DNA of 64,000 nucleotides, taken from positions 64,001 to 128,000 of IMG/VR virus record IMGVR_UViG_3300028840_004475; one strand, written 5' to 3'. The stretch comes from a virus. Within the stretch, counting starts at the first letter, position 1. Each line of letters begins with the position of its first letter. Of the stretch, positions 41,001-52,750 are shown in pieces. The position numbers were made by a program, and so were the translations under genes. Under the pieces are notes generated by a model, which worked only from the letters and a program-made list of their open reading frames with translations, was not told where the DNA came from and did not search any database.

Positions 41001-41549
41001 ATGAACCCTACTCATATGTTTCTGACAAAAGGGAAGGGAGTCGCCAAAGAGAAGCTCACCAGCTTTGAGATGGCCCTCAGGAACGCAGGCATTGCACAAC
41101 TCAACCTTGTGCGTGTCTCTAGCATCTTCCCGCCTCATTGCGAGATCGTGAAACGCGAGGACGGCCTCAAGTTCTTGCTGCCAGGTGACATCACGTTCGC
41201 TGTCATGTCTGACAATGCAACAGACGAGCCGAACCGTCTCGTTGCTGCATCAATCGGTCTAGCACGCCCTGCAGATGCCGCCATGTGGGGCTACTTGTCT
41301 GAGCACCATGCGTACGGGCAAACCGCTAAGAAGGCAGGAGAGTACGCAGAAGACCTCGCGGCCACAATGCTAGCCACCACCCTGGGCGTCGAGTTTGACT
41401 CCGACAAGGACTACGACGAGAGGAAAGAGATCTACAGGATGGACGGCCGCATCGTTCACAGCCGTGAGATCACACAGAGTGCTGAGGGCAATAAGGACGG
41501 TCTTTGGACTACAGTGGTGGCGGCAGCGATTCTGCTCACAAGACGTTGA
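41001..41549 (+). CDS. pdaD: Pyruvoyl-dependent arginine decarboxylase
   Basis: [23 protein letters not shown] self-cleavage motif, [15 protein letters not shown]. Confidence 0.92.
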
Positions 41550-47469: not shown

Positions 47470-48529
47470 TTTTCTCGAGGTCATAACGGGTCGAACACCT
47501 TGGACATTTATGGCCACCGCCCCAATGGTCTCGGACCAGCAGCTCGATGCAGTAGACACAACGCGACTTGCTCCAGTGGCACTGAGGACAGTCATGCGTG
47601 CCGGCTTCGATCCTCTCTACCAGTTTCTTCGGTAGTCTTGCCTTGCATTGAGGGCATTCTCGTGCTGGCTTCCACATTTCTTCGTAGGCATTCTGCTCTG
47701 CACCGTAAGATAGTGCAAATTCCTTGGATGCTTTGTCAGCAAATACGTTGAATGCCTTGACAAGAGCCGTGAAGATCGGTTGCAGAGTCTTGTTCATCTG
47801 ATCGGCCAAGTTGTTCAGAGACTTTGCCAAAGCATTGAGTGCACTCTGCGCTTCCTGGACGCCCTTGGAGAACTTTTCACTGTCGGCCGCGATGACGACC
47901 TCCAACGGCTCTTTGTTCTTTTTGTAGAGTTCGATCCTGACCTTCTTGGCGTCCTCCGCTGTGGGTACCATTGTTTTGTGTACCCTGCAGGCTGGGCAAT
48001 CATCGTCACCAGTGCACTCGACGGTGAAGGAATTGGGGCCATTATTTGATGTGCTCTCATACGTCACGGGAATGAACCCGTGATCCTCTGCCCAGATGGA
48101 CTCCAACGTGACAGCGATGTTGGCCGGCGTCAGAAGCGGTGTCATCGTCAATCCATCAAGCTTGTGCTCTACTTCCGTCAGCAAGCTGGCATCAGCCTTC
48201 CTCTTCACTTCGTCAATGAAGTTGCCCGCAGCGAGAAATGTCTGGTACGCAAGATCAGCTGTGCTGATGCTGCCATTGGTCTCTTCGAGAAGTGGGTGAA
48301 TTCCACGACCACAAGTATCAGATAGACGGCGCATCAACGTCTCAGCACTGTAGTCGACACACTTGAACAGGAAGTCGGTGAAGGCTTTTTCGATGCACTG
48401 GGTCTCACCGTCGAGATTCATGTGGACGTCCCACCAAAAGTCTGGACGCGGTTTCAGCTCGATGATGAAGATCATGCTGTCTTTGAACCGATGGTTGATC
48501 CGTGTCTTCAACGCGATGCGGTCGCCCAT
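47450..48529 (-). CDS. Hypothetical protein with C-terminal Zn ribbons
   Basis: AGGAGG RBS; four CxxC pairs. Confidence 0.6.
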   Translation of the reverse strand: MGDRIALKTRINHRFKDSMIFIIELKPRPDFWWDVHMNLDGETQCIEKAFTDFLFKCVDYSAETLMRRLSDTCGRGIHPLLEETNGSISTADLAYQTFLAAGNFIDEVKRKADASLLTEVEHKLDGLTMTPLLTPANIAVTLESIWAEDHGFIPVTYESTSNNGPNSFTVECTGDDDCPACRVHKTMVPTAEDAKKVRIELYKKNKEPLEVVIAADSEKFSKGVQEAQSALNALAKSLNNLADQMNKTLQPIFTALVKAFNVFADKASKEFALSYGAEQNAYEEMWKPARECPQCKARLPKKLVERIEAGTHDCPQCHWSKSRCVYCIELLVRDHWGGGHKCPRCSTRYDLEKNEIKSR

Positions 48530-48619
48530 GGATGCCTCCTTACTATTTGATACAGCATGTGCGCCCAAATCAGACTAGAAAATGGCTAGAATGTGGTAGA
48601 CACGATCAGGAGGTGTTCC

Positions 48620-49042
48620 ATGAGCGACAGCAAACCATCGAAGACCAGCACGCATGTCCTTGGAAATCCACCGAACTTCGGTGAAGTGAGCGTCTCAGCC
48701 TATGCGATCGGGGACGAGAATCTCTCCACCCCCGTCTACATGGCGCCGTCTCTACCTTATAGGACGACACCCCCGAACACCGATTTCCCCATCCCAGAGG
48801 GTCTTGAGTTCCGAGGGCCCAGAGGAGCCCTCACCAGGGAAGGGTTCGAGGCCATGGTCGACCTGATCACCGAAGAAAAAGTGAAGGTGATGCACAGGGA
48901 CGCAGAGATCACCCAGTTGAAGAAGCTGATCCAGGAGATCTACAGCCTGGTCTGCCCTGGATGGGCCGGCGACTTCGGGAACCCGGATCAGCTCAAGGGT
49001 GCTATCTCACGCCGTCTGGCGGACCTCACCGAAAAAAAGTGA
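48620..49042 (+). CDS. Hypothetical protein
   Basis: AGGAGG RBS before the ATG at 48620. Confidence 0.55.
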   Translation: MSDSKPSKTSTHVLGNPPNFGEVSVSAYAIGDENLSTPVYMAPSLPYRTTPPNTDFPIPEGLEFRGPRGALTREGFEAMVDLITEEKVKVMHRDAEITQLKKLIQEIYSLVCPGWAGDFGNPDQLKGAISRRLADLTEKK

Positions 49043-49062
49043 TCCGCCCCTGATTTTTCTGA

Positions 49063-49130
49063 TTGACAAGTACCCCACAAGTACCCTACTTCTGTACCCT
49101 ACAAGTACGTTATAAAACATTCAGGTACGG
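49063..49130 (+). promoter_or_regulatory. Promoter of the Ro60 gene with GTAC-core direct repeats
   Basis: TTGACA at 49063; ACAAGTACCC twice, TTCTGTACCC, ACAAGTACGT, TCAGGTACGG; TATAAA at 49111. Confidence 0.6.
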
Positions 49131-49139
49131 AGCAGGATC

Positions 49140-50873
49140 ATGCAGACCTTCACCGAGGCAACGCGCTGGCGGAAGCCGACCAAGCGCAAGGGCAACGGCC
49201 GCAACTACGCCCAGCAGCGCCAGGTCATCCCAGGCAAGAGCCGGCTCATGACTTCGACCTCGAGCGGCACCAAGGCCTTCAAGGTGGACGACTGGGGTCG
49301 CCTCGCCCGCTTCCTGATCCTGGGAGCAGACAAGCCGACCTTCTACGCGACGAAGCGCCAGCTGGTGCGGGACAACGCGAGGGTGGTCGAGCGCTGCATC
49401 AAGGAAGACGGTATCCGTACCGTGGACCTGATCGCGGAAGTGTCGATTCAGGGCTCGGCGCCGAACAACGACCCGGCCCTGTTTGCGCTGGCAATGTGCG
49501 CGACCCTGGGTGGCCTCCACACCCGCCAGTACGCCCTCGGGCGCCTGTCGGACGTGGCGCGGATCGGAACGCACCTGTTCCACTTCGTGGCCTACTGCGA
49601 GGGTCTCGGTCACGGCTGGGGCCGGAACATGCGACGTGCGATCCGTGGGTGGTACAACGAGAAGGCGCCGGACAAGCTGGCGTATCAGATCCTGAAGTAC
49701 AAGCAGCGTGACGGCTGGTCGCACAAGGATCTGCTCGCTCTGGCTCACCCGCGCACTTCGAACAAGGAACGTGATGCCATCTACCGGTACATCGTGGCCG
49801 GCATCGATGGTCTGGGCAAGCGTACTGTCCTGAAGCACAACGGCCGCCGGAAGGTCCGCAAGACCTACCCGGACGTGTCACGTCACCTGCCGGCGCAGAT
49901 CTTCGCCGCGCACGACGTGCACAAGGTCAGCAAGCGGAAGGCCAAGCAGCTCATCGAAGAGCACCGCATGACCCATGAGATGGTGCCGAACGAGCTGAAG
50001 AACGACCCAGAGGTCTGGGAGATCATGCTCGAGACGATGCCCATCGGAGCGATGGTGCGGAACCTCGGCAAGATGACCAGCATCGGCCTCCTGGACCGGA
50101 TGTCCAGGGCCTCGAAGCTGGTGATCGACCGGCTGGGCGACATGGAGCGGATCCGTCGGGCGCGTCTGCACCCGATCGAGTTCCTCAAGGCCAACCGTGT
50201 CTACGGTGCCGGCCGCGGGGACAAGGGATCGCTGTGCTGGGATCCGGTGCGCGGGATCGTCCGAGCACTGGACGACGGGTTCTACCTGGCCTTCGGCGCG
50301 ATCGAGCCGAGCGGCGTGAACACTGGTCTGTTCATCGACGTCTCTGGTTCGATGGCATGGGACACCTCACGCGTGAAGTCGATGGCGAACATGACCGCAC
50401 GTGAGCTGTCAGGTGCCATGGCCCTGGTGACGGCGAACGTGGAGCCGTACTGGGAGATCATCGCCTTCTCCGGCGGCTACGACTCGCTCGAGGAGATCCC
50501 GATCGAGCCCGGCATGAAGCTGGACACGGTCGTGAACAGGATGGAGCGTATGCGAGCCGGCAGCACGAACCTGTCGCTACCGTTCGAGTACGCACGTGGA
50601 CGCGGTGTCCCGATCGAGACGTTTATCGTCTACACAGACAACGAGACGAATCACTTCGGCTCGCTGCATCCGTCGGAGGCACTGCGCAGGTACCGGAAAG
50701 AGACCGGCATCGACGCGAAGCTGATCGTGGTCGGCATGGTGGCGAACGACATCTCGATCGCTGACCCGACCGATCACGGCATGTTGGATGTAGTTGGGTT
50801 CGACACGAACGCTCCGTCAGTGATGGCGGACTTCGCGAAGGGCGCCTACGAGATCGACGTCGAGCAGGGCTGA
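49140..50873 (+). CDS. rsr: Ro60/Rsr TROVE-domain RNA-binding protein
   Basis: DDW.RL.RFLILG....FY, RIGTHLFHF, KYKQRDGWSHKDLL.LAHP, A..RNLGKMT, vWA MIDAS DVSGSM, YTDNET, DPTD.GMLDVVGFD. Confidence 0.97.
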   Translation: MQTFTEATRWRKPTKRKGNGRNYAQQRQVIPGKSRLMTSTSSGTKAFKVDDWGRLARFLILGADKPTFYATKRQLVRDNARVVERCIKEDGIRTVDLIAEVSIQGSAPNNDPALFALAMCATLGGLHTRQYALGRLSDVARIGTHLFHFVAYCEGLGHGWGRNMRRAIRGWYNEKAPDKLAYQILKYKQRDGWSHKDLLALAHPRTSNKERDAIYRYIVAGIDGLGKRTVLKHNGRRKVRKTYPDVSRHLPAQIFAAHDVHKVSKRKAKQLIEEHRMTHEMVPNELKNDPEVWEIMLETMPIGAMVRNLGKMTSIGLLDRMSRASKLVIDRLGDMERIRRARLHPIEFLKANRVYGAGRGDKGSLCWDPVRGIVRALDDGFYLAFGAIEPSGVNTGLFIDVSGSMAWDTSRVKSMANMTARELSGAMALVTANVEPYWEIIAFSGGYDSLEEIPIEPGMKLDTVVNRMERMRAGSTNLSLPFEYARGRGVPIETFIVYTDNETNHFGSLHPSEALRRYRKETGIDAKLIVVGMVANDISIADPTDHGMLDVVGFDTNAPSVMADFAKGAYEIDVEQG

Positions 50874-50882
50874 CACGAGTTT

Positions 50883-50943
50883 GAGGGCCGGACGGCTTGG
50901 GTTATCTTGCAACGATACCCCCCAGGCCAAACACTTTGCCCTC
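50883..50943 (+). ncRNA. Y RNA 1 (minimal)
   Basis: GAGGGCCGGA..CTTGGGTTATC...CCCAGG..ACTTTGCCCTC; Ro-binding-type stem with bulged C. Confidence 0.8.
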
Positions 50944-50952
50944 TTCAAGTTT

Positions 50953-51071
50953 GGCTGACGTAGCGATGTGGAAGGACACATGAGAGACGGCAGTAGCCCA
51001 AGGCTAGGTGTGTGCCGCCCCGTTTAGAGGAATCCTTGGGGAGCTGGTATCAAGGCCAGTCTGCGTCAGTC
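50953..51071 (+). ncRNA. Unknown structured RNA within the Y RNA array
   Basis: 11-bp terminal stem GGCTGACGTAG/CTGCGTCAGTC plus internal hairpins. Confidence 0.6.
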
Positions 51072-51088
51072 GTTCTATGGAAGGATTT

Positions 51089-51199
51089 GTGGGCCGAATG
51101 GATTGCAGGGTTATCGATGGTTCGAATCCACCTGGCGGGTCTAAACCACCCGCTATCGCCTAGCTGGTTAAGGCACCCCTGTACCAACAACTTGCCCAC
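51089..51199 (+). ncRNA. Y RNA 2 (YrlA-like: T arm, acceptor hairpin, D arm)
   Basis: GTGGGCCGA...CTTGCCCAC stem; GGTTCGAATCC; TGGCGGGT/ACCCGCTA; GCCTAGCTGGTTAAGGC. Confidence 0.85.
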
Positions 51200-51216
51200 T
51201 TTGAATTATGGGAGTT

Positions 51217-51344
51217 GCGGGCCGTAGACTGAACGTTATCTAAGCGCGCAATTTTGCGCTTATAGCTCAGTTGGTAGAGCGCCGGGGGTAGCCTCGGAGG
51301 TCGAGGGTTCGAATCCCTAACGACGTTCTTTCAGCTTTGTCCGC
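51217..51344 (+). ncRNA. Y RNA 3 (acceptor hairpin, D, anticodon, T)
   Basis: GCGGGCCGTA...TTGTCCGC; TAAGCGC/GCGCTTA; TAGCTCAGTTGGTAGAGC; GGGTTCGAATCCC. Confidence 0.8.
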
Positions 51345-51366
51345 GCCCTACCTATTAGAGGAGTTT

Positions 51367-51429
51367 GAGGGCCGGAAGTCTTGGGTTATCACTTCGGATG
51401 ATGCTTCCCAGGACACTAACTTTGCCCTC
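51367..51429 (+). ncRNA. Y RNA 4 (minimal)
   Basis: GAGGGCCGGA.GTCTTGGGTTATC...CCCAGGAC..ACTTTGCCCTC. Confidence 0.8.
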
Positions 51430-51448
51430 GTTTCTATACACTGAGTTT

Positions 51449-51515
51449 GTGGGCCGGAGGCAACGGGTTACCTTTCATTTGGAGAAAACACACCCATCGC
51501 CAACAACTTGCCCAC
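51449..51515 (+). ncRNA. Y RNA 5 (minimal)
   Basis: GTGGGCCGGA...GGGTTACC...CCC...ACTTGCCCAC. Confidence 0.75.
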
Positions 51516-51534
51516 TTCGTTTTGAGAGGAGTTT

Positions 51535-51665
51535 GCGGGCCGTACGAAATAGGTTACCAATGCAAACTGTAGGTCGCGGGTTCGAGTCCCGTCATCGGCA
51601 CCATGCCGATGTAGATCAGCTGGTAGATCAACAGTGGTTACACGCCTACTTCACTTTTTGCCCGC
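51535..51665 (+). ncRNA. Y RNA 6 (YrlA-like, permuted tRNA retaining ACCA)
   Basis: GCGGGCCGTA...TTGCCCGC; ACTGT/ACAGT; T arm; CATCGGC-ACCA-T-GCCGATG; D arm. Confidence 0.85.
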
Positions 51666-51687
51666 GTTTCAAAGGACACTATGGTTT

Positions 51688-51819
51688 GAGGGCCGGACGC
51701 ACGTTGGGTTATCCACTCATAATGGAGAGGTCGCAGGTTCGAATCCTGTCGTGGCTTTAGCGAGTCACGTAGCTCAGTTGGTCAGAGCGCTAAACCCCCA
51801 ATGTCAACTATTTGCCCTC
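51688..51819 (+). ncRNA. Y RNA 7 (CAT anticodon arm, T, acceptor, D)
   Basis: GAGGGCCGGA...TTTGCCCTC; TCCA-CTCATAA-TGGA; T arm; CGTGGCT/AGTCACG; D arm. Confidence 0.85.
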
Positions 51820-51836
51820 GTTTTGAAGTAGAAGAG

Positions 51837-52127
51837 ATGAACACGAGAGAGACACGCATGTTGACAGAAGCAATCAGAGCAAACACGCGCGCCCTCCTCG
51901 AGAACACGAAGCTCTTGAAACGCTTCACGTCGAAGCAGGACCGCAAGAGCGATCTCGATGAGAGACGCAACCGACTACTGGCGAACATCCCGTACCTGAA
52001 GTCAGAGCTGAAGCAGTTCCGGCGTCAGGAGCTGGTGATGCTCGCTGCAGCCCTGGGGGTCAGGAACACATCAGTACCGAACACACGCCTCGTGGAAGTG
52101 ATCTTCAGAGAACAGAAGCGAGCGTGA
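51837..52127 (+). CDS. Hypothetical protein
   Basis: MNTRETR...; C-terminus resembles a small helical (Rho-N-like) motif. Confidence 0.5.
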   Translation: MNTRETRMLTEAIRANTRALLENTKLLKRFTSKQDRKSDLDERRNRLLANIPYLKSELKQFRRQELVMLAAALGVRNTSVPNTRLVEVIFREQKRA

Positions 52128-52324
52128 AGAAGCTGTACATCTGGTTCTGCGACAAGTGCAACTCGTTCGTACCAGCGACGTGTTGTCTGGCAACGAGCAA
52201 GAAGGCAGCATGGGACGGCGGTCAAGAACACCTGGTGAAGACGCACGACTTGACTCACCACGCTACCGACATGGAGTTGTTCAAGGGCCGCGTCGTCATC
52301 TTGGAAGAGAAGACGAAAAAATAG
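52124..52324 (+). CDS. Small Zn-finger protein
   Basis: CDKC...H....H. Confidence 0.5.
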   Translation: MKKLYIWFCDKCNSFVPATCCLATSKKAAWDGGQEHLVKTHDLTHHATDMELFKGRVVILEEKTKK

Positions 52325-52377
52325 CTTGACAGATCGATAACCGATGCATCACGATGAAAACTTCGTCGGAGGATGCT

Positions 52378-52491
52378 ATGCACCGCGCAATTCAGATCAC
52401 CACCATTCCCATCAAGCGCGACGGACGATTGTCCTTCCTCTGTTCCCTTTCGTCCCTATTTCTCTATTCCAATTCCGGCTGGCGACTGTAG
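52378..52491 (+). CDS. Putative 37-aa leader peptide before a tRNA block
   Basis: TTGACA promoter at 52326, GGAGG RBS. Confidence 0.35.
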   Translation: MHRAIQITTIPIKRDGRLSFLCSLSSLFLYSNSGWRL

Positions 52492-52503
52492 ACGCATCTT
52501 TGC

Positions 52504-52587
52504 GGATCGGTAGCTGAGCTGGTTTAGCAGCGGGCTGTTAACCCGTGCCCTCGGGCTACGTGGGTTCGAGTCCCACCCGATCCGCCA
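52504..52587 (+). tRNA. tRNA-Asn(GTT), long variable arm
   Basis: Cloverleaf, CCA. Confidence 0.85.
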
Positions 52588-52590
52588 TGT

Positions 52591-52659
52591 GGGCGCCAGG
52601 CTATGGCAGCCAAGCGGGCTCCAACCCCGCAGGACAGGGTTCGATTCCTTGGGCGCTCG
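52591..52659 (+). tRNA. tRNA-Trp(CCA), divergent
   Basis: Short D loop; anticodon arm GCGGG-CTCCAAC-CCCGC; no CCA end. Confidence 0.65.
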
Positions 52660-52674
52660 TAGAAAGAAAAATGT

Positions 52675-52750
52675 GGACTCGTCGCTGAGTTGGTTCAGGC
52701 GCCTGGTTGAAGCCCAGGAGACGTTGGTTCGATTCCAACCGAGTCCACCA
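52675..52750 (+). tRNA. tRNA-Phe(GAA)
   Basis: Cloverleaf, CCA. Confidence 0.9.

What the first reader, a model, noticed from the sequence alone, without database searches (positions are those of the whole stretch)
51089..51819. tRNA-like domains grafted onto the Y stem in different circular permutations
Seen: Y2 is T arm, acceptor hairpin, D arm (no anticodon arm). Y6 is 3' anticodon strand, T, acceptor, D, 5' anticodon strand (opened in the anticodon loop). Y7 is an intact anticodon arm, T, acceptor, D (opened between D and anticodon arms). Y3 is acceptor hairpin, D, anticodon, variable, T (opened between T arm and acceptor). Known: YrlA has the T-acceptor-D order, with the Ro stem in place of the anticodon arm. 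Inference: Y3 and Y7 are permutations I do not know from described Y RNAs; they would present different tRNA surfaces, including a free anticodon loop, from the Ro ring.
Basis: partly seen in the sequence, partly recalled or inferred. Interest (0 to 1): 0.9.

Follow-up and report, generated by a model that had tools for sequence, protein, structure and literature searches.

The report
Phage Y RNAs with rewired tRNA mimics
Downstream of a phage Ro60 gene lie seven small Y RNAs, four of which carry a tRNA look-alike joined to the Ro60-docking stem at three different points; one of these wirings is already in print, and one appears undescribed but recurs in other phages and bacteria.

Summary
Window 51086-51824 encodes four (Y2, Y3, Y6, Y7) of seven tandem Y RNAs that follow a Ro60 gene in a complete 147.7-kb metagenomic phage genome. 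Re-linearised Y3 and Y7 are called tRNAs by ARAGORN; 0 of 900 shuffles are.

- **Y2 and Y6** are classical YrlA.
- **Y7** is the commonest YrlA form. The anticodon-arm reading still gains support. In 22 distinct loops, position 2 is U in 20 and position 6 is a purine in all 22. Elsewhere I found tRNA-shaped RNAs with a loop-closed Ro hairpin between the D and anticodon arms, a design this scan reported before on other DNA.
- **Y3** (closed acceptor hairpin, D, anticodon-like arm, T) is rarer. It recurs with covariation in at least 12 loci, including Polyangium genomes. Only Deinococcus Yrn1 shares its arm order in the papers I could read.

Function is inferred: Ro60 tethers that present a tRNA-shaped module in different orientations. 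This is a new variant of a known kind.

The parts
49140..50873 (+). Ro60 (TROVE + Ro60 vWA) gene, 577 aa, directly upstream of the Y RNA array
   Evidence: Pfam PF05731 at 2.5e-41 and PF25045 at 2.4e-50. At most 41% identical to Ro60 of deposited phages and at most 59% to any protein in the large collection.
50880..50948 (+). Y1, a minimal Y RNA: Ro-docking stem plus one hairpin with a 7-nt loop
   Evidence: Shared stem motifs, fold. Its 5' strand is 90-93% identical to those of Y4 and Y7.
51086..51204 (+). Y2: Y stem, then T arm (51116-51132), acceptor hairpin (51134-51154), D arm (51157-51175). Classical YrlA wiring with the Y stem in the anticodon-stem position.
   Evidence: The five bases of the conserved motif after the Y stem serve as the variable loop directly before the T stem.
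51214..51350 (+). Y3: Y stem, then closed acceptor hairpin (51241-51262), D arm (51265-51280), anticodon-like arm with a 6-nt loop (51282-51297), variable loop (51298-51302), T arm (51303-51319), a 3-nt linker, then the Y stem. D-first wiring with a closed acceptor.
   Evidence: The minimum-free-energy fold shows all four hairpins. Rfam tRNA 27.6 bits. ARAGORN calls it a tRNA after re-linearisation. Scores 99 bits, E 5e-20, against a model it helped to build, so the score is circular. Relatives and covariation.
51364..51434 (+). Y4, a minimal Y RNA
51446..51520 (+). Y5, a minimal Y RNA
51532..51670 (+). Y6: Y stem, internal loop, then a 5-bp anticodon stem (51566-51570 with 51631-51635) enclosing the variable loop, T arm (51576-51592), acceptor hairpin with ACCA in its loop (51593-51611) and D arm (51614-51629). 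Classical YrlA wiring.
   Evidence: Rfam YrlA 42.5 bits. ARAGORN calls it a tRNA once a surrogate anticodon loop is added. Coordinates.
51685..51824 (+). Y7: Y stem, then an anticodon-like stem-loop with the loop CUCAUAA (51711-51727), a 5-nt variable loop, T arm (51733-51749), acceptor hairpin (51750-51769), D arm (51772-51788), then the Y stem. This is YrlA with the 'V' stem-loop.
   Evidence: Rfam YrlA 49.1 bits, with the hairpin treated as a 13-nt insertion. The fold shows all four hairpins. ARAGORN calls tRNA-Met(CAT) after re-linearisation.

Best explanation
The stretch encodes four of seven tandem Y RNAs of a phage Ro60 ribonucleoprotein. Each RNA has two modules. The first is a docking helix for the Ro60 ring, formed by the 5' and 3' ends, with a GGGCCG-type 5' strand, a UUGCCC-type 3' strand and a conserved UUAYC at its top. 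The second is a cargo.

In Y2, Y3, Y6 and Y7 the cargo is a tRNA-shaped module with a loop-closed 7-bp acceptor stem. What differs is where the docking helix joins the cloverleaf:
- at the anticodon stem in Y2 and Y6 (classical YrlA);
- at the junction between the D arm and an intact anticodon-like stem-loop in Y7 (the published 'V-arm' YrlA class);
- between the T stem and the 3' acceptor strand in Y3 (a rarer D-first class).

Shown here: the arms, their order, their conservation and covariation in other Ro60 loci, and the shared stems.

Inferred from work on YrlA, Yrn1 and Thermus phage Yrl RNAs: Ro60 binds the stem; the module folds into the tRNA L-shape; host tRNA enzymes recognise it (TruB, Dus, and RNase P because the acceptor stems have 7 bp); and it tethers Ro60 to a tRNA-binding or RNA-degrading partner such as PNPase. 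The different wirings would hold the L-shape in different orientations and leave different ends free.

The neighbouring 37-tRNA island suggests that the particle acts in tRNA surveillance or in conflict over tRNAs. That is a guess.
For: **Context.**
- A Ro60 gene lies immediately upstream on the same strand.
- Seven units share the stem motifs, and there are no others in the 147,747-bp genome.
- The variable stem position covaries across the paralogues: A-U in Y1, Y4 and Y7; U-A in Y2 and Y5; C-G in Y3 and Y6.

**Structure in the window.** Arms and folds. Shuffle control 0 of 900. Sub-threshold YrlA and tRNA hits.

**Y7 class.**
- 39 of 75 classified T-first modules beside Ro60 genes have this hairpin, a raw count that includes a few false positives.
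- 32 of the 39 loops have 7 nt.
- Over 22 distinct loops, position 2 is U in 20, position 6 is a purine in 22, and the middle three positions vary.
- The stems covary.

**Support for the anticodon-arm reading of Y7.**
- Four loci (Desulfonema magnum, Polyangium jinanense, an Armatimonadetes genome and a viral contig) hold a cloverleaf with an open acceptor stem. A roughly 50-nt loop-closed Ro hairpin sits between its D arm and anticodon arm.
- An encoded CCA follows the acceptor in three of the four.
- ARAGORN calls all four tRNAs once the hairpin is removed.
- ARAGORN and a GenBank record read the same hairpin of a Mycobacterium prophage Y RNA as the anticodon arm of a 'tRNA-Thr(tgt)'.

**Y3 class.**
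- Full-length model hits in L391 (86 bits), a second L089 copy at 1796 (56 bits), L432 Polyangiaceae (75 bits), L472 Haliangiales (64 bits) and Polyangium species (about 61 bits).
- L072 and L089:1929 score 111 bits, but they were used to build the model.
- On seven sequences, 94.5% of cells are paired against 77.5% in shuffles (0 of 500). Ten pairs change on both sides against 4.4 expected, and slid controls reach at most 50%.
- The acceptor-like hairpin covaries.
- The linker from T stem to Y stem is 3-8 nt in most members, against 0-1 nt where the Y stem itself acts as acceptor.
- L124, L286 and L308 are Ro60-adjacent on the same strand.

**Literature.** YrlA is modified by TruB and DusA, M. 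smegmatis YrlA is cut by RNase P, and YrlA folds as a tRNA L-shape (PMC4201824; 10.1101/312249). Phage Ro60, Yrl RNA and host PNPase form a complex (PMC12135203).
Against: - There are no expression, end-mapping, binding or modification data for this phage.
- The minimum-free-energy z-scores are modest.
- The Rfam YrlA scores are below the gathering threshold, and Y2 and Y3 get no YrlA hit at all.
- Minimal Y RNAs (Y1, Y4, Y5) carry the same 7-nt-loop hairpin without any tRNA-like part. It could therefore be an intrinsic Y RNA element rather than an anticodon-arm mimic.
- In the solved Salmonella YrlA the Y stem stacks as the anticodon stem (10.1101/312249). If Y7 does the same, its hairpin behaves as an extra arm, and the wiring difference has less effect on three-dimensional shape.
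- In some Y3-class relatives the hairpin is offset by one base, or the 5' acceptor strand can also pair downstream (L072, L089, L363).
- The phage encodes no RtcB, CCA-adding enzyme or Rnl2-type ligase that would tie the locus to tRNA repair.
Confidence: 0.72

Rival explanations
1. There are only two wirings, not three. Y7 is an ordinary YrlA in which the Y stem occupies the anticodon-stem position and stacks under the D stem. Its hairpin is a long variable arm, as Chen et al. named it. Y7 would then present the same surfaces as Y2 and Y6 plus one extra arm.
For: - The two readings are the same secondary-structure topology.
- Chen 2014 equates V with the tRNA variable arm.
- In the Salmonella YrlA structure the Y stem continues the anticodon stem.
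- The hairpin also exists in minimal Y RNAs that have no tRNA part.
Against: - The loops have the anticodon-loop signature: 7 nt, U at position 2, a purine at position 6 and a variable middle.
- A regular 5-nt variable loop ending in the base that would pair with position 15 follows the hairpin.
- The open-acceptor relatives are complete cloverleaves, with this hairpin as the only anticodon arm and the Ro helix as the insertion.
- tRNA finders read it as an anticodon arm.
Confidence: 0.3
2. The different orders are neutral by-products of how these genes arise, through recombination or boundary shifts in tandem tRNA or Y RNA arrays. They carry no distinct function, and any tRNA elbow on a Ro handle would do.
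For: - The dimeric-tRNA origin model is published.
- Acceptor-hairpin loops often begin with ACC or ACCA, as in window Y6, L363, L089 and L072, like a fossil tRNA 3' end.
- Similar stems carry different cargo.
- The 5' half of Y7 matches the phage tRNA-Ile at 24 of 25 positions.
Against: - Each class recurs with compensatory changes in phages and bacteria whose Ro60 proteins are only 36-47% identical.
- An independent phage array (L072) holds the same mix of minimal, Y3-type, Y6-type and Y7-type RNAs.
- Apart from that Y7 half, similarity of the modules to the phage's own tRNAs is confined to the universally conserved arms.
Confidence: 0.2
3. They are precursors rather than final products. RNase P or RNase Z opens the 7-bp acceptor hairpins, as in M. 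smegmatis YrlA or permuted pre-tRNAs, yielding split or re-joined tRNA-like RNAs, possibly ones that can be charged.
For: - All four acceptor stems have 7 bp, the RNase P determinant named by Chen 2014.
- Y6 encodes ACCA followed by one base before the 5' strand.
- Permuted pre-tRNAs are discussed for YrlA.
Against: - Y3 has a 6-nt anticodon-like loop, and Y2 and Y6 have no anticodon loop.
- No ligase or CCA-adding enzyme is encoded in the phage.
- No splicing-type endonuclease is known in bacteria for this.
- The Y2, Y3 and Y7 acceptor loops lack CCA.
Confidence: 0.08

Closest known systems
YrlA (Rfam RF02553; Chen et al. 2014, PMC4201824; structure in Wang et al. 2018, 10.1101/312249)
   Same: Encoded beside Ro60 on the same strand. 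Shares the Ro-docking stem with a GNCGAA-like motif, the conserved YUAY, the T arm, closed acceptor stem and D arm in that order (Y2, Y6, Y7), and the optional 'V' stem-loop before the T arm (Y7). Phage examples are known.
   Different: Scores fall below the Rfam threshold (49 and 42 bits against 69). Y3 has the opposite order. There are seven copies in one array. Here the V stem-loop is argued to be an anticodon-arm equivalent rather than a variable arm.
Deinococcus radiodurans Yrn1 (Chen et al. 2013 and 2014)
   Same: A Ro60-bound Y RNA whose tRNA-like part runs D-like, anticodon-like arm (5 bp, 6-nt loop), then T arm. That is the order in Y3, including the 6-nt loop.
   Different: As described, Yrn1 has only partial D-loop features, no variable loop and no closed acceptor hairpin, and the Ro stem takes the acceptor position. 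Y3 has a full D arm, a 5-nt variable loop and a separate 7-8 bp acceptor hairpin. I could not fetch the Yrn1 sequence to compare directly.
tRNA-shaped RNAs carrying a loop-closed Ro60-docking hairpin
   Same: Same parts as Y7 (Ro helix, anticodon-like arm, variable loop, T arm, acceptor, D arm) in the same cyclic order.
   Different: The molecule is opened at the acceptor stem (an encoded CCA follows in three of the four) and closed at the Ro helix. It is the circular permutation of Y7. None is present in this phage genome.
Circularly permuted tRNA genes of red algae and some archaea (Soma et al. 2007, as cited in 10.1101/312249)
   Same: The acceptor stem is closed by a loop and the gene order is permuted.
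   Different: Those are processed into working tRNAs by splicing-type enzymes. Here there is no evidence of processing, the anticodon loops are non-canonical or absent, and a Ro-docking helix is attached.

Membership tests
YrlA (RF02553) | Encoded within a few kb of a Ro60/TROVE gene on the same strand | tested here: met
   Ro60 ORF at 49140-50873 (+). The array begins 7 nt after its stop codon.
YrlA (RF02553) | 5' motif GNCGAAN0-1G in the Ro-binding strand | tested here: inconclusive
   Y2 matches exactly. The other six differ at one position, with G or U in place of the first A. Binding was not tested.
YrlA (RF02553) | T stem-loop, closed acceptor-like stem-loop and D stem-loop in that order, with tRNA-like conserved loop bases | tested here: met
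   Met for Y2, Y6 and Y7. Not met for Y3, whose order is acceptor, D, anticodon-like, T.
YrlA (RF02553) | Conserved YUAY at the start of the V region | tested here: met
   UUAUC or UUACC ends the 5' stem strand in all seven units.
YrlA (RF02553) | Score at or above the Rfam gathering threshold (69 bits) | tested here: not met
   Y7 scores 49.1 bits and Y6 42.5 bits. Y2 and Y3 get no YrlA hit even at E up to 10.
YrlA (RF02553) | Bound by Ro60; pseudouridine 55 and dihydrouridine present | not testable with these tools
   No RNA data exist for this phage.
Yrn1-type Y RNA | tRNA-like part in the order D-like, anticodon-like arm, T arm | tested here: met
   Met for Y3 only. The criterion is taken from the text of PMC4201824.
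Yrn1-type Y RNA | Ro-binding stem occupies the acceptor-stem position | tested here: not met
   Y3 has its own closed 7-8 bp acceptor hairpin and a 3-nt linker between the T stem and the Y stem. Relatives with the Y stem as acceptor do exist elsewhere, for example L356, L345, L361 and L413.
tRNA (RF00005) | Cloverleaf with an acceptor stem formed by the 5' and 3' ends, scoring at or above 29 bits or called by ARAGORN | tested here: not met
   Y3 scores 27.6 bits and Y7 22.1 bits. ARAGORN finds nothing at its default threshold in 50801-51900. Calls appear only after artificial re-linearisation.
Permuted pre-tRNA genes | Processed into a mature, chargeable tRNA | not tested
   No read data. Y3 has a 6-nt loop, and no ligase or CCA-adding enzyme is encoded in the phage.

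The most novel reading that the evidence does not exclude
Ro60-associated RNAs form a full permutation series of one design: a tRNA cloverleaf plus a Ro60-docking helix.

The helix can join at the anticodon stem, at the D/anticodon junction, at the acceptor end or at the T/acceptor junction. The molecule can be opened either at the helix or at the acceptor stem.

In this reading the 'V arm' of YrlA is a true anticodon stem-loop whose variable triplet gives each RNA an identity. It might act as a decoy or sensor for anticodon-directed nucleases or modification enzymes. A phage that carries several wirings on near-identical handles would then use them to direct Ro60, with a partner nuclease, at different tRNA-related targets.
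Probability: 0.2. Interest if true: 0.8.

Novelty: new variant of a known kind. Interest (0 to 1): 0.6.

Why it matters
Y RNAs are thought to work as tethers, with one end docking on Ro60 and the other recruiting a partner. The partner of the tRNA-like module of bacterial Y RNAs is still unknown.

A single phage that mounts the same tRNA-shaped module on near-identical handles in three wirings is a natural experiment. Pull-downs or structures comparing Y2/Y6, Y7 and Y3 would show which face of the tRNA shape matters.

The survey also changes how the family should be modelled:
- The Rfam YrlA model treats the commonest hairpin as an insertion, and these members of that form score below its threshold.
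- The D-first class and the open-acceptor class are missed altogether.
- At least one member is annotated in GenBank as a tRNA.

If the hairpin really is an anticodon arm, the 'variable arm' label in the literature would need revising.

Tried and rejected
- **Nucleotide search of deposited phages.** Only short hits to the tRNA-like cores; no close relative.
- **Closest Ro60 relatives.** The closest relatives (56-59% identical; L007, L008, L009) have 2-4 Y RNAs with Y7-, Y6- and Y2-type modules but no Y3-type. No orthologous copy of Y3 was found.
- **Two degenerate-pattern scans of viral contigs for the Y3 wiring.** After filtering, only L124, L247, L286, L308 and L162 (the same contig as L072) remained.
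- **Deriving each module from the phage's own tRNAs.** Similarity is limited to the generic arms, except that the 5' half of Y7 matches tRNA-Ile(GAU) at 24 of 25 positions. A Met-Ile-Val gene-cluster origin was not supported.
- **An inter-unit fold.** I tested whether adjacent units in the window could fold between units into the open-acceptor form. The Y6 and Y7 acceptor strands are not complementary, so I rejected this by inspection.
- **Sequencing runs.** No RNA holder is listed, so I did not lay reads.
- **Promoter and terminator scan of 48400-52700.** No promoter-like site, and terminator-like sites at chance level.
- **RNA repair genes.** RtcB, CCA-adding enzyme and Rnl2-type ligase families were not found in the phage genome.
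- **Papers not held.** The reviews by Sim and Wolin (2018) and Sim et al. (2020), and Burroughs and Aravind (2016), are not in the library, and the supplements of Chen 2014 are not held. I cannot exclude that the Y3-type or open-acceptor forms are drawn there.
- **Yrn1.** I could not fetch the Deinococcus Yrn1 sequence for a direct alignment.
Full report
**Setting.** The window is bases 64001-128000 of a complete 147,747-bp viral genome with direct terminal repeats, from IMG/VR. An ORF at 49140-50873 (+) encodes a 577-aa Ro60 protein, with Pfam TROVE at 2.5e-41 and the Ro60 vWA domain at 2.4e-50. It is at most 41% identical to Ro60 of deposited phages and at most 59% identical to anything in the large protein collection.

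Starting 7 nt after its stop codon, seven units share a GNGGGCCG 5' strand, a UUGCCCNC-type 3' strand and a UUAYC motif. These are the only such units in the genome. The variable stem base covaries with its partner across the paralogues. A 37-tRNA island follows from 52504.

**Checking the observation.** All four tRNA-like modules have 7-bp, loop-closed acceptor stems. They also have U8-A9-like linkers, D loops with GG, 5-nt variable loops ending in C, and UUCRANY T loops.
- RNAfold places all four hairpins of Y3 and of Y7 inside the Y stem, although the z-scores are only -1.6 to -2.7.
- ARAGORN sees no tRNA in the native sequence at its default threshold.
- After opening the acceptor loop and removing the Y stem, it calls Y3 a tRNA with a 6-nt anticodon loop and Y7 a tRNA-Met(CAU).
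- None of 900 shuffles is called.
- Rfam gives sub-threshold YrlA hits to Y7 (49.1 bits, with the hairpin as a 13-nt insertion) and Y6 (42.5 bits), and a tRNA hit of 27.6 bits to Y3.

The one correction is that the Y3 'anticodon' loop is not canonical.

**What is already known.** Chen et al. 2014 define YrlA by T, AS (acceptor-like) and D stem-loops. [quoted passage not shown] They also note that Deinococcus Yrn1 has the opposite orientation, with an anticodon-like arm (5 bp, 6-nt loop) between D-like and T elements. Wang et al. 2018 call YrlA RNAs circularly permuted tRNA look-alikes and cite a dimeric-tRNA origin model.

This places the four RNAs as follows:
- Y2 and Y6 are classical YrlA.
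- Y7 is the V-arm form.
- Y3 shares its arm order with Yrn1.

**Y7 class.** I collected 164 Ro60 loci from viral and metagenome contigs, 80 from named genomes and five deposited phages.
- Among the 164 viral and metagenome loci plus the window, I classified 75 T-first modules that follow a YUAY motif. Of these, 39 have a hairpin before the T arm, 21 have an anticodon-type stem that pairs across the module as in Y6, and 2 have the T arm directly after the motif as in Y2. These raw counts include a few false positives such as tandem tRNAs.
- Thirty-two of the 39 loops have 7 nt.
- Over 22 distinct loops, position 2 is U in 20, position 6 is a purine in 22 (A in 18), position 7 is A in 16, and the middle three positions use all four bases. 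That is the anticodon-loop pattern.
- The stems covary freely.
- Mycobacteriophage Cali has this form, so published alignments contain it.

1. The loop signature above.
2. A normal 5-nt variable loop follows the hairpin.
3. Four loci hold a cloverleaf with an open acceptor stem, and in three of them an encoded CCA follows it. In each, a roughly 50-nt loop-closed Ro-docking hairpin sits between the D arm and this stem-loop. The loci are Desulfonema magnum L456, Polyangium jinanense L426, an Armatimonadetes genome L440 and viral contig L085. With the hairpin removed, ARAGORN calls tRNA-Arg, tRNA-Thr, tRNA-Asn and tRNA-Cys.

That design is the circular permutation of Y7. Other agents of this scan reported it on other DNA. 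In addition, GenBank annotates the Y7-type RNA of prophage prophiGD43A-5 as tRNA-Thr(tgt), because ARAGORN reads the hairpin as the anticodon arm.

Against this reading, the minimal Y RNAs (Y1, Y4, Y5) carry the same kind of hairpin with no tRNA part. The solved Salmonella YrlA also stacks the Y stem as the anticodon stem.

**Y3 class.** A descriptor search and two pattern scans found relatives in L072 (identical to L074 and L162), L089, L124, L247, L286 and L308. A covariance model built from seven of them then found further members:
- L391 (86 bits);
- a second copy in L089 (56 bits);
- L432 Polyangiaceae (75 bits);
- L472 Haliangiales (64 bits);
- three Polyangium genomes (about 61 bits).

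On the seven-sequence alignment:
- 94.5% of cells pair, against 77.5% in shuffles (0 of 500).
- Ten of 16 pairs change on both sides, against 4.4 expected.
- Slid controls reach at most 50%.

The hairpin before the D arm covaries and ends 0-1 nt before the U8-A9 pair. The anticodon-like loops vary from 5 to 9 nt.

A related subclass uses the Y stem itself as the acceptor stem and has 7-nt anticodon-like loops. Examples are L356, L345, L361, L347, L413, L421 and L453. In that subclass the T stem runs into the Y stem with a 0-1 nt linker. In most Y3-class members the linker is 3-8 nt, which leaves the T stem free to stack on the separate acceptor hairpin.

The L072 phage array holds the same mix as this window: three minimal RNAs, one Y3-type, one Y6-type and one Y7-type. 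L124, L286 and L308 are Ro60-adjacent. I found no description of the closed-acceptor D-first form in the papers available, but key reviews are not held.

**Grafting.** The 5' strands of Y1, Y4 and Y7 are 86-93% identical while their cargo differs. Similarity of the modules to the phage's own tRNAs is generic, except that the 5' half of Y7 matches tRNA-Ile at 24 of 25 positions. Several acceptor-hairpin loops begin with ACC or ACCA. That fits an origin from tRNA 3' ends joined to the next gene, or from boundary shifts on arrays of the open-acceptor form.

**Mechanism.** The anatomy and its conservation are shown here. From the literature I infer three things:
- Ro60 docks on the shared stem.
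- The cargo folds as a tRNA L-shape that host tRNA enzymes recognise.
- The RNA tethers Ro60 to a partner. PNPase plays this role in Deinococcus, Salmonella and Thermus phage phiLo (PMC12135203).

The wirings fix the L-shape to Ro60 by its anticodon end (Y2, Y6), by its hinge (Y7) or by the middle of its acceptor-T arm (Y3). They should therefore expose different faces. No RNA data exist, and the phage has no RtcB, CCA-adding enzyme or Rnl2-type ligase.

**Verdict.** This is a real, conserved feature. Y7 is not new as a topology, although its reading as an anticodon arm gains support. Y3 belongs to an apparently undescribed but recurrent variant. I rate it a new variant of a known kind, with interest 0.6.

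Noticed in passing
L456:1440-1607 (Desulfonema magnum), L085:2115-2265, L426:4290-4443 (Polyangium jinanense), L440:1855-2074: tRNA-shaped RNAs next to Ro60 genes. Each has an open acceptor stem, and an encoded CCA follows it in three of the four. A roughly 50-nt loop-closed Ro-docking hairpin sits between the D arm and the anticodon arm. ARAGORN calls them tRNAs once the hairpin is removed. They are the circular permutation of Y7-type YrlA, and the same design was reported earlier in this scan on other DNA.
   Followed up: partly
L407:1723-1801 (Mycobacterium phage prophiGD43A-5, GenBank MW584167.1): The feature annotated tRNA-Thr(tgt) is part of a Y7-type Y RNA, with the V hairpin read as the anticodon arm. 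It lies in an unannotated array of at least six Y RNA-like units upstream of the Ro60 gene. The first unit looks D-first but lacks a T arm.
   Followed up: partly
window 50949-51085: The 137-nt spacer between Y1 and Y2 lacks the Y stem motifs. It folds into a long closing stem with four internal hairpins (-51.4 kcal/mol, z -2.2). It has no Rfam hit and may be another structured RNA.
   Followed up: partly
window 50880-51824: The variable base of the Ro-docking stem runs A, U, C, A, U, C, A along Y1 to Y7, each with a compensating 3' base. The Y1, Y4 and Y7 stems are near-identical. This suggests the array grew by repeating a three-unit block and then exchanging cargo.
   Followed up: partly
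genome positions 134602-134677 and 135382-135458, minus strand (outside the window): ARAGORN calls two tRNAs as tRNA-His with anticodon AUG, an unusual anticodon. They lie apart from the main tRNA island.
   Followed up: no
window 51801-52127 and L007:5803-6087: A small conserved ORF of 94-108 aa with no Pfam family follows the Y RNA array, both here and in the closest Ro60 relative. It may belong to the same module.
   Followed up: no
window 41001-41549: A pyruvoyl-dependent arginine decarboxylase gene (PF01862, 4e-59) in a phage genome.
   Followed up: no
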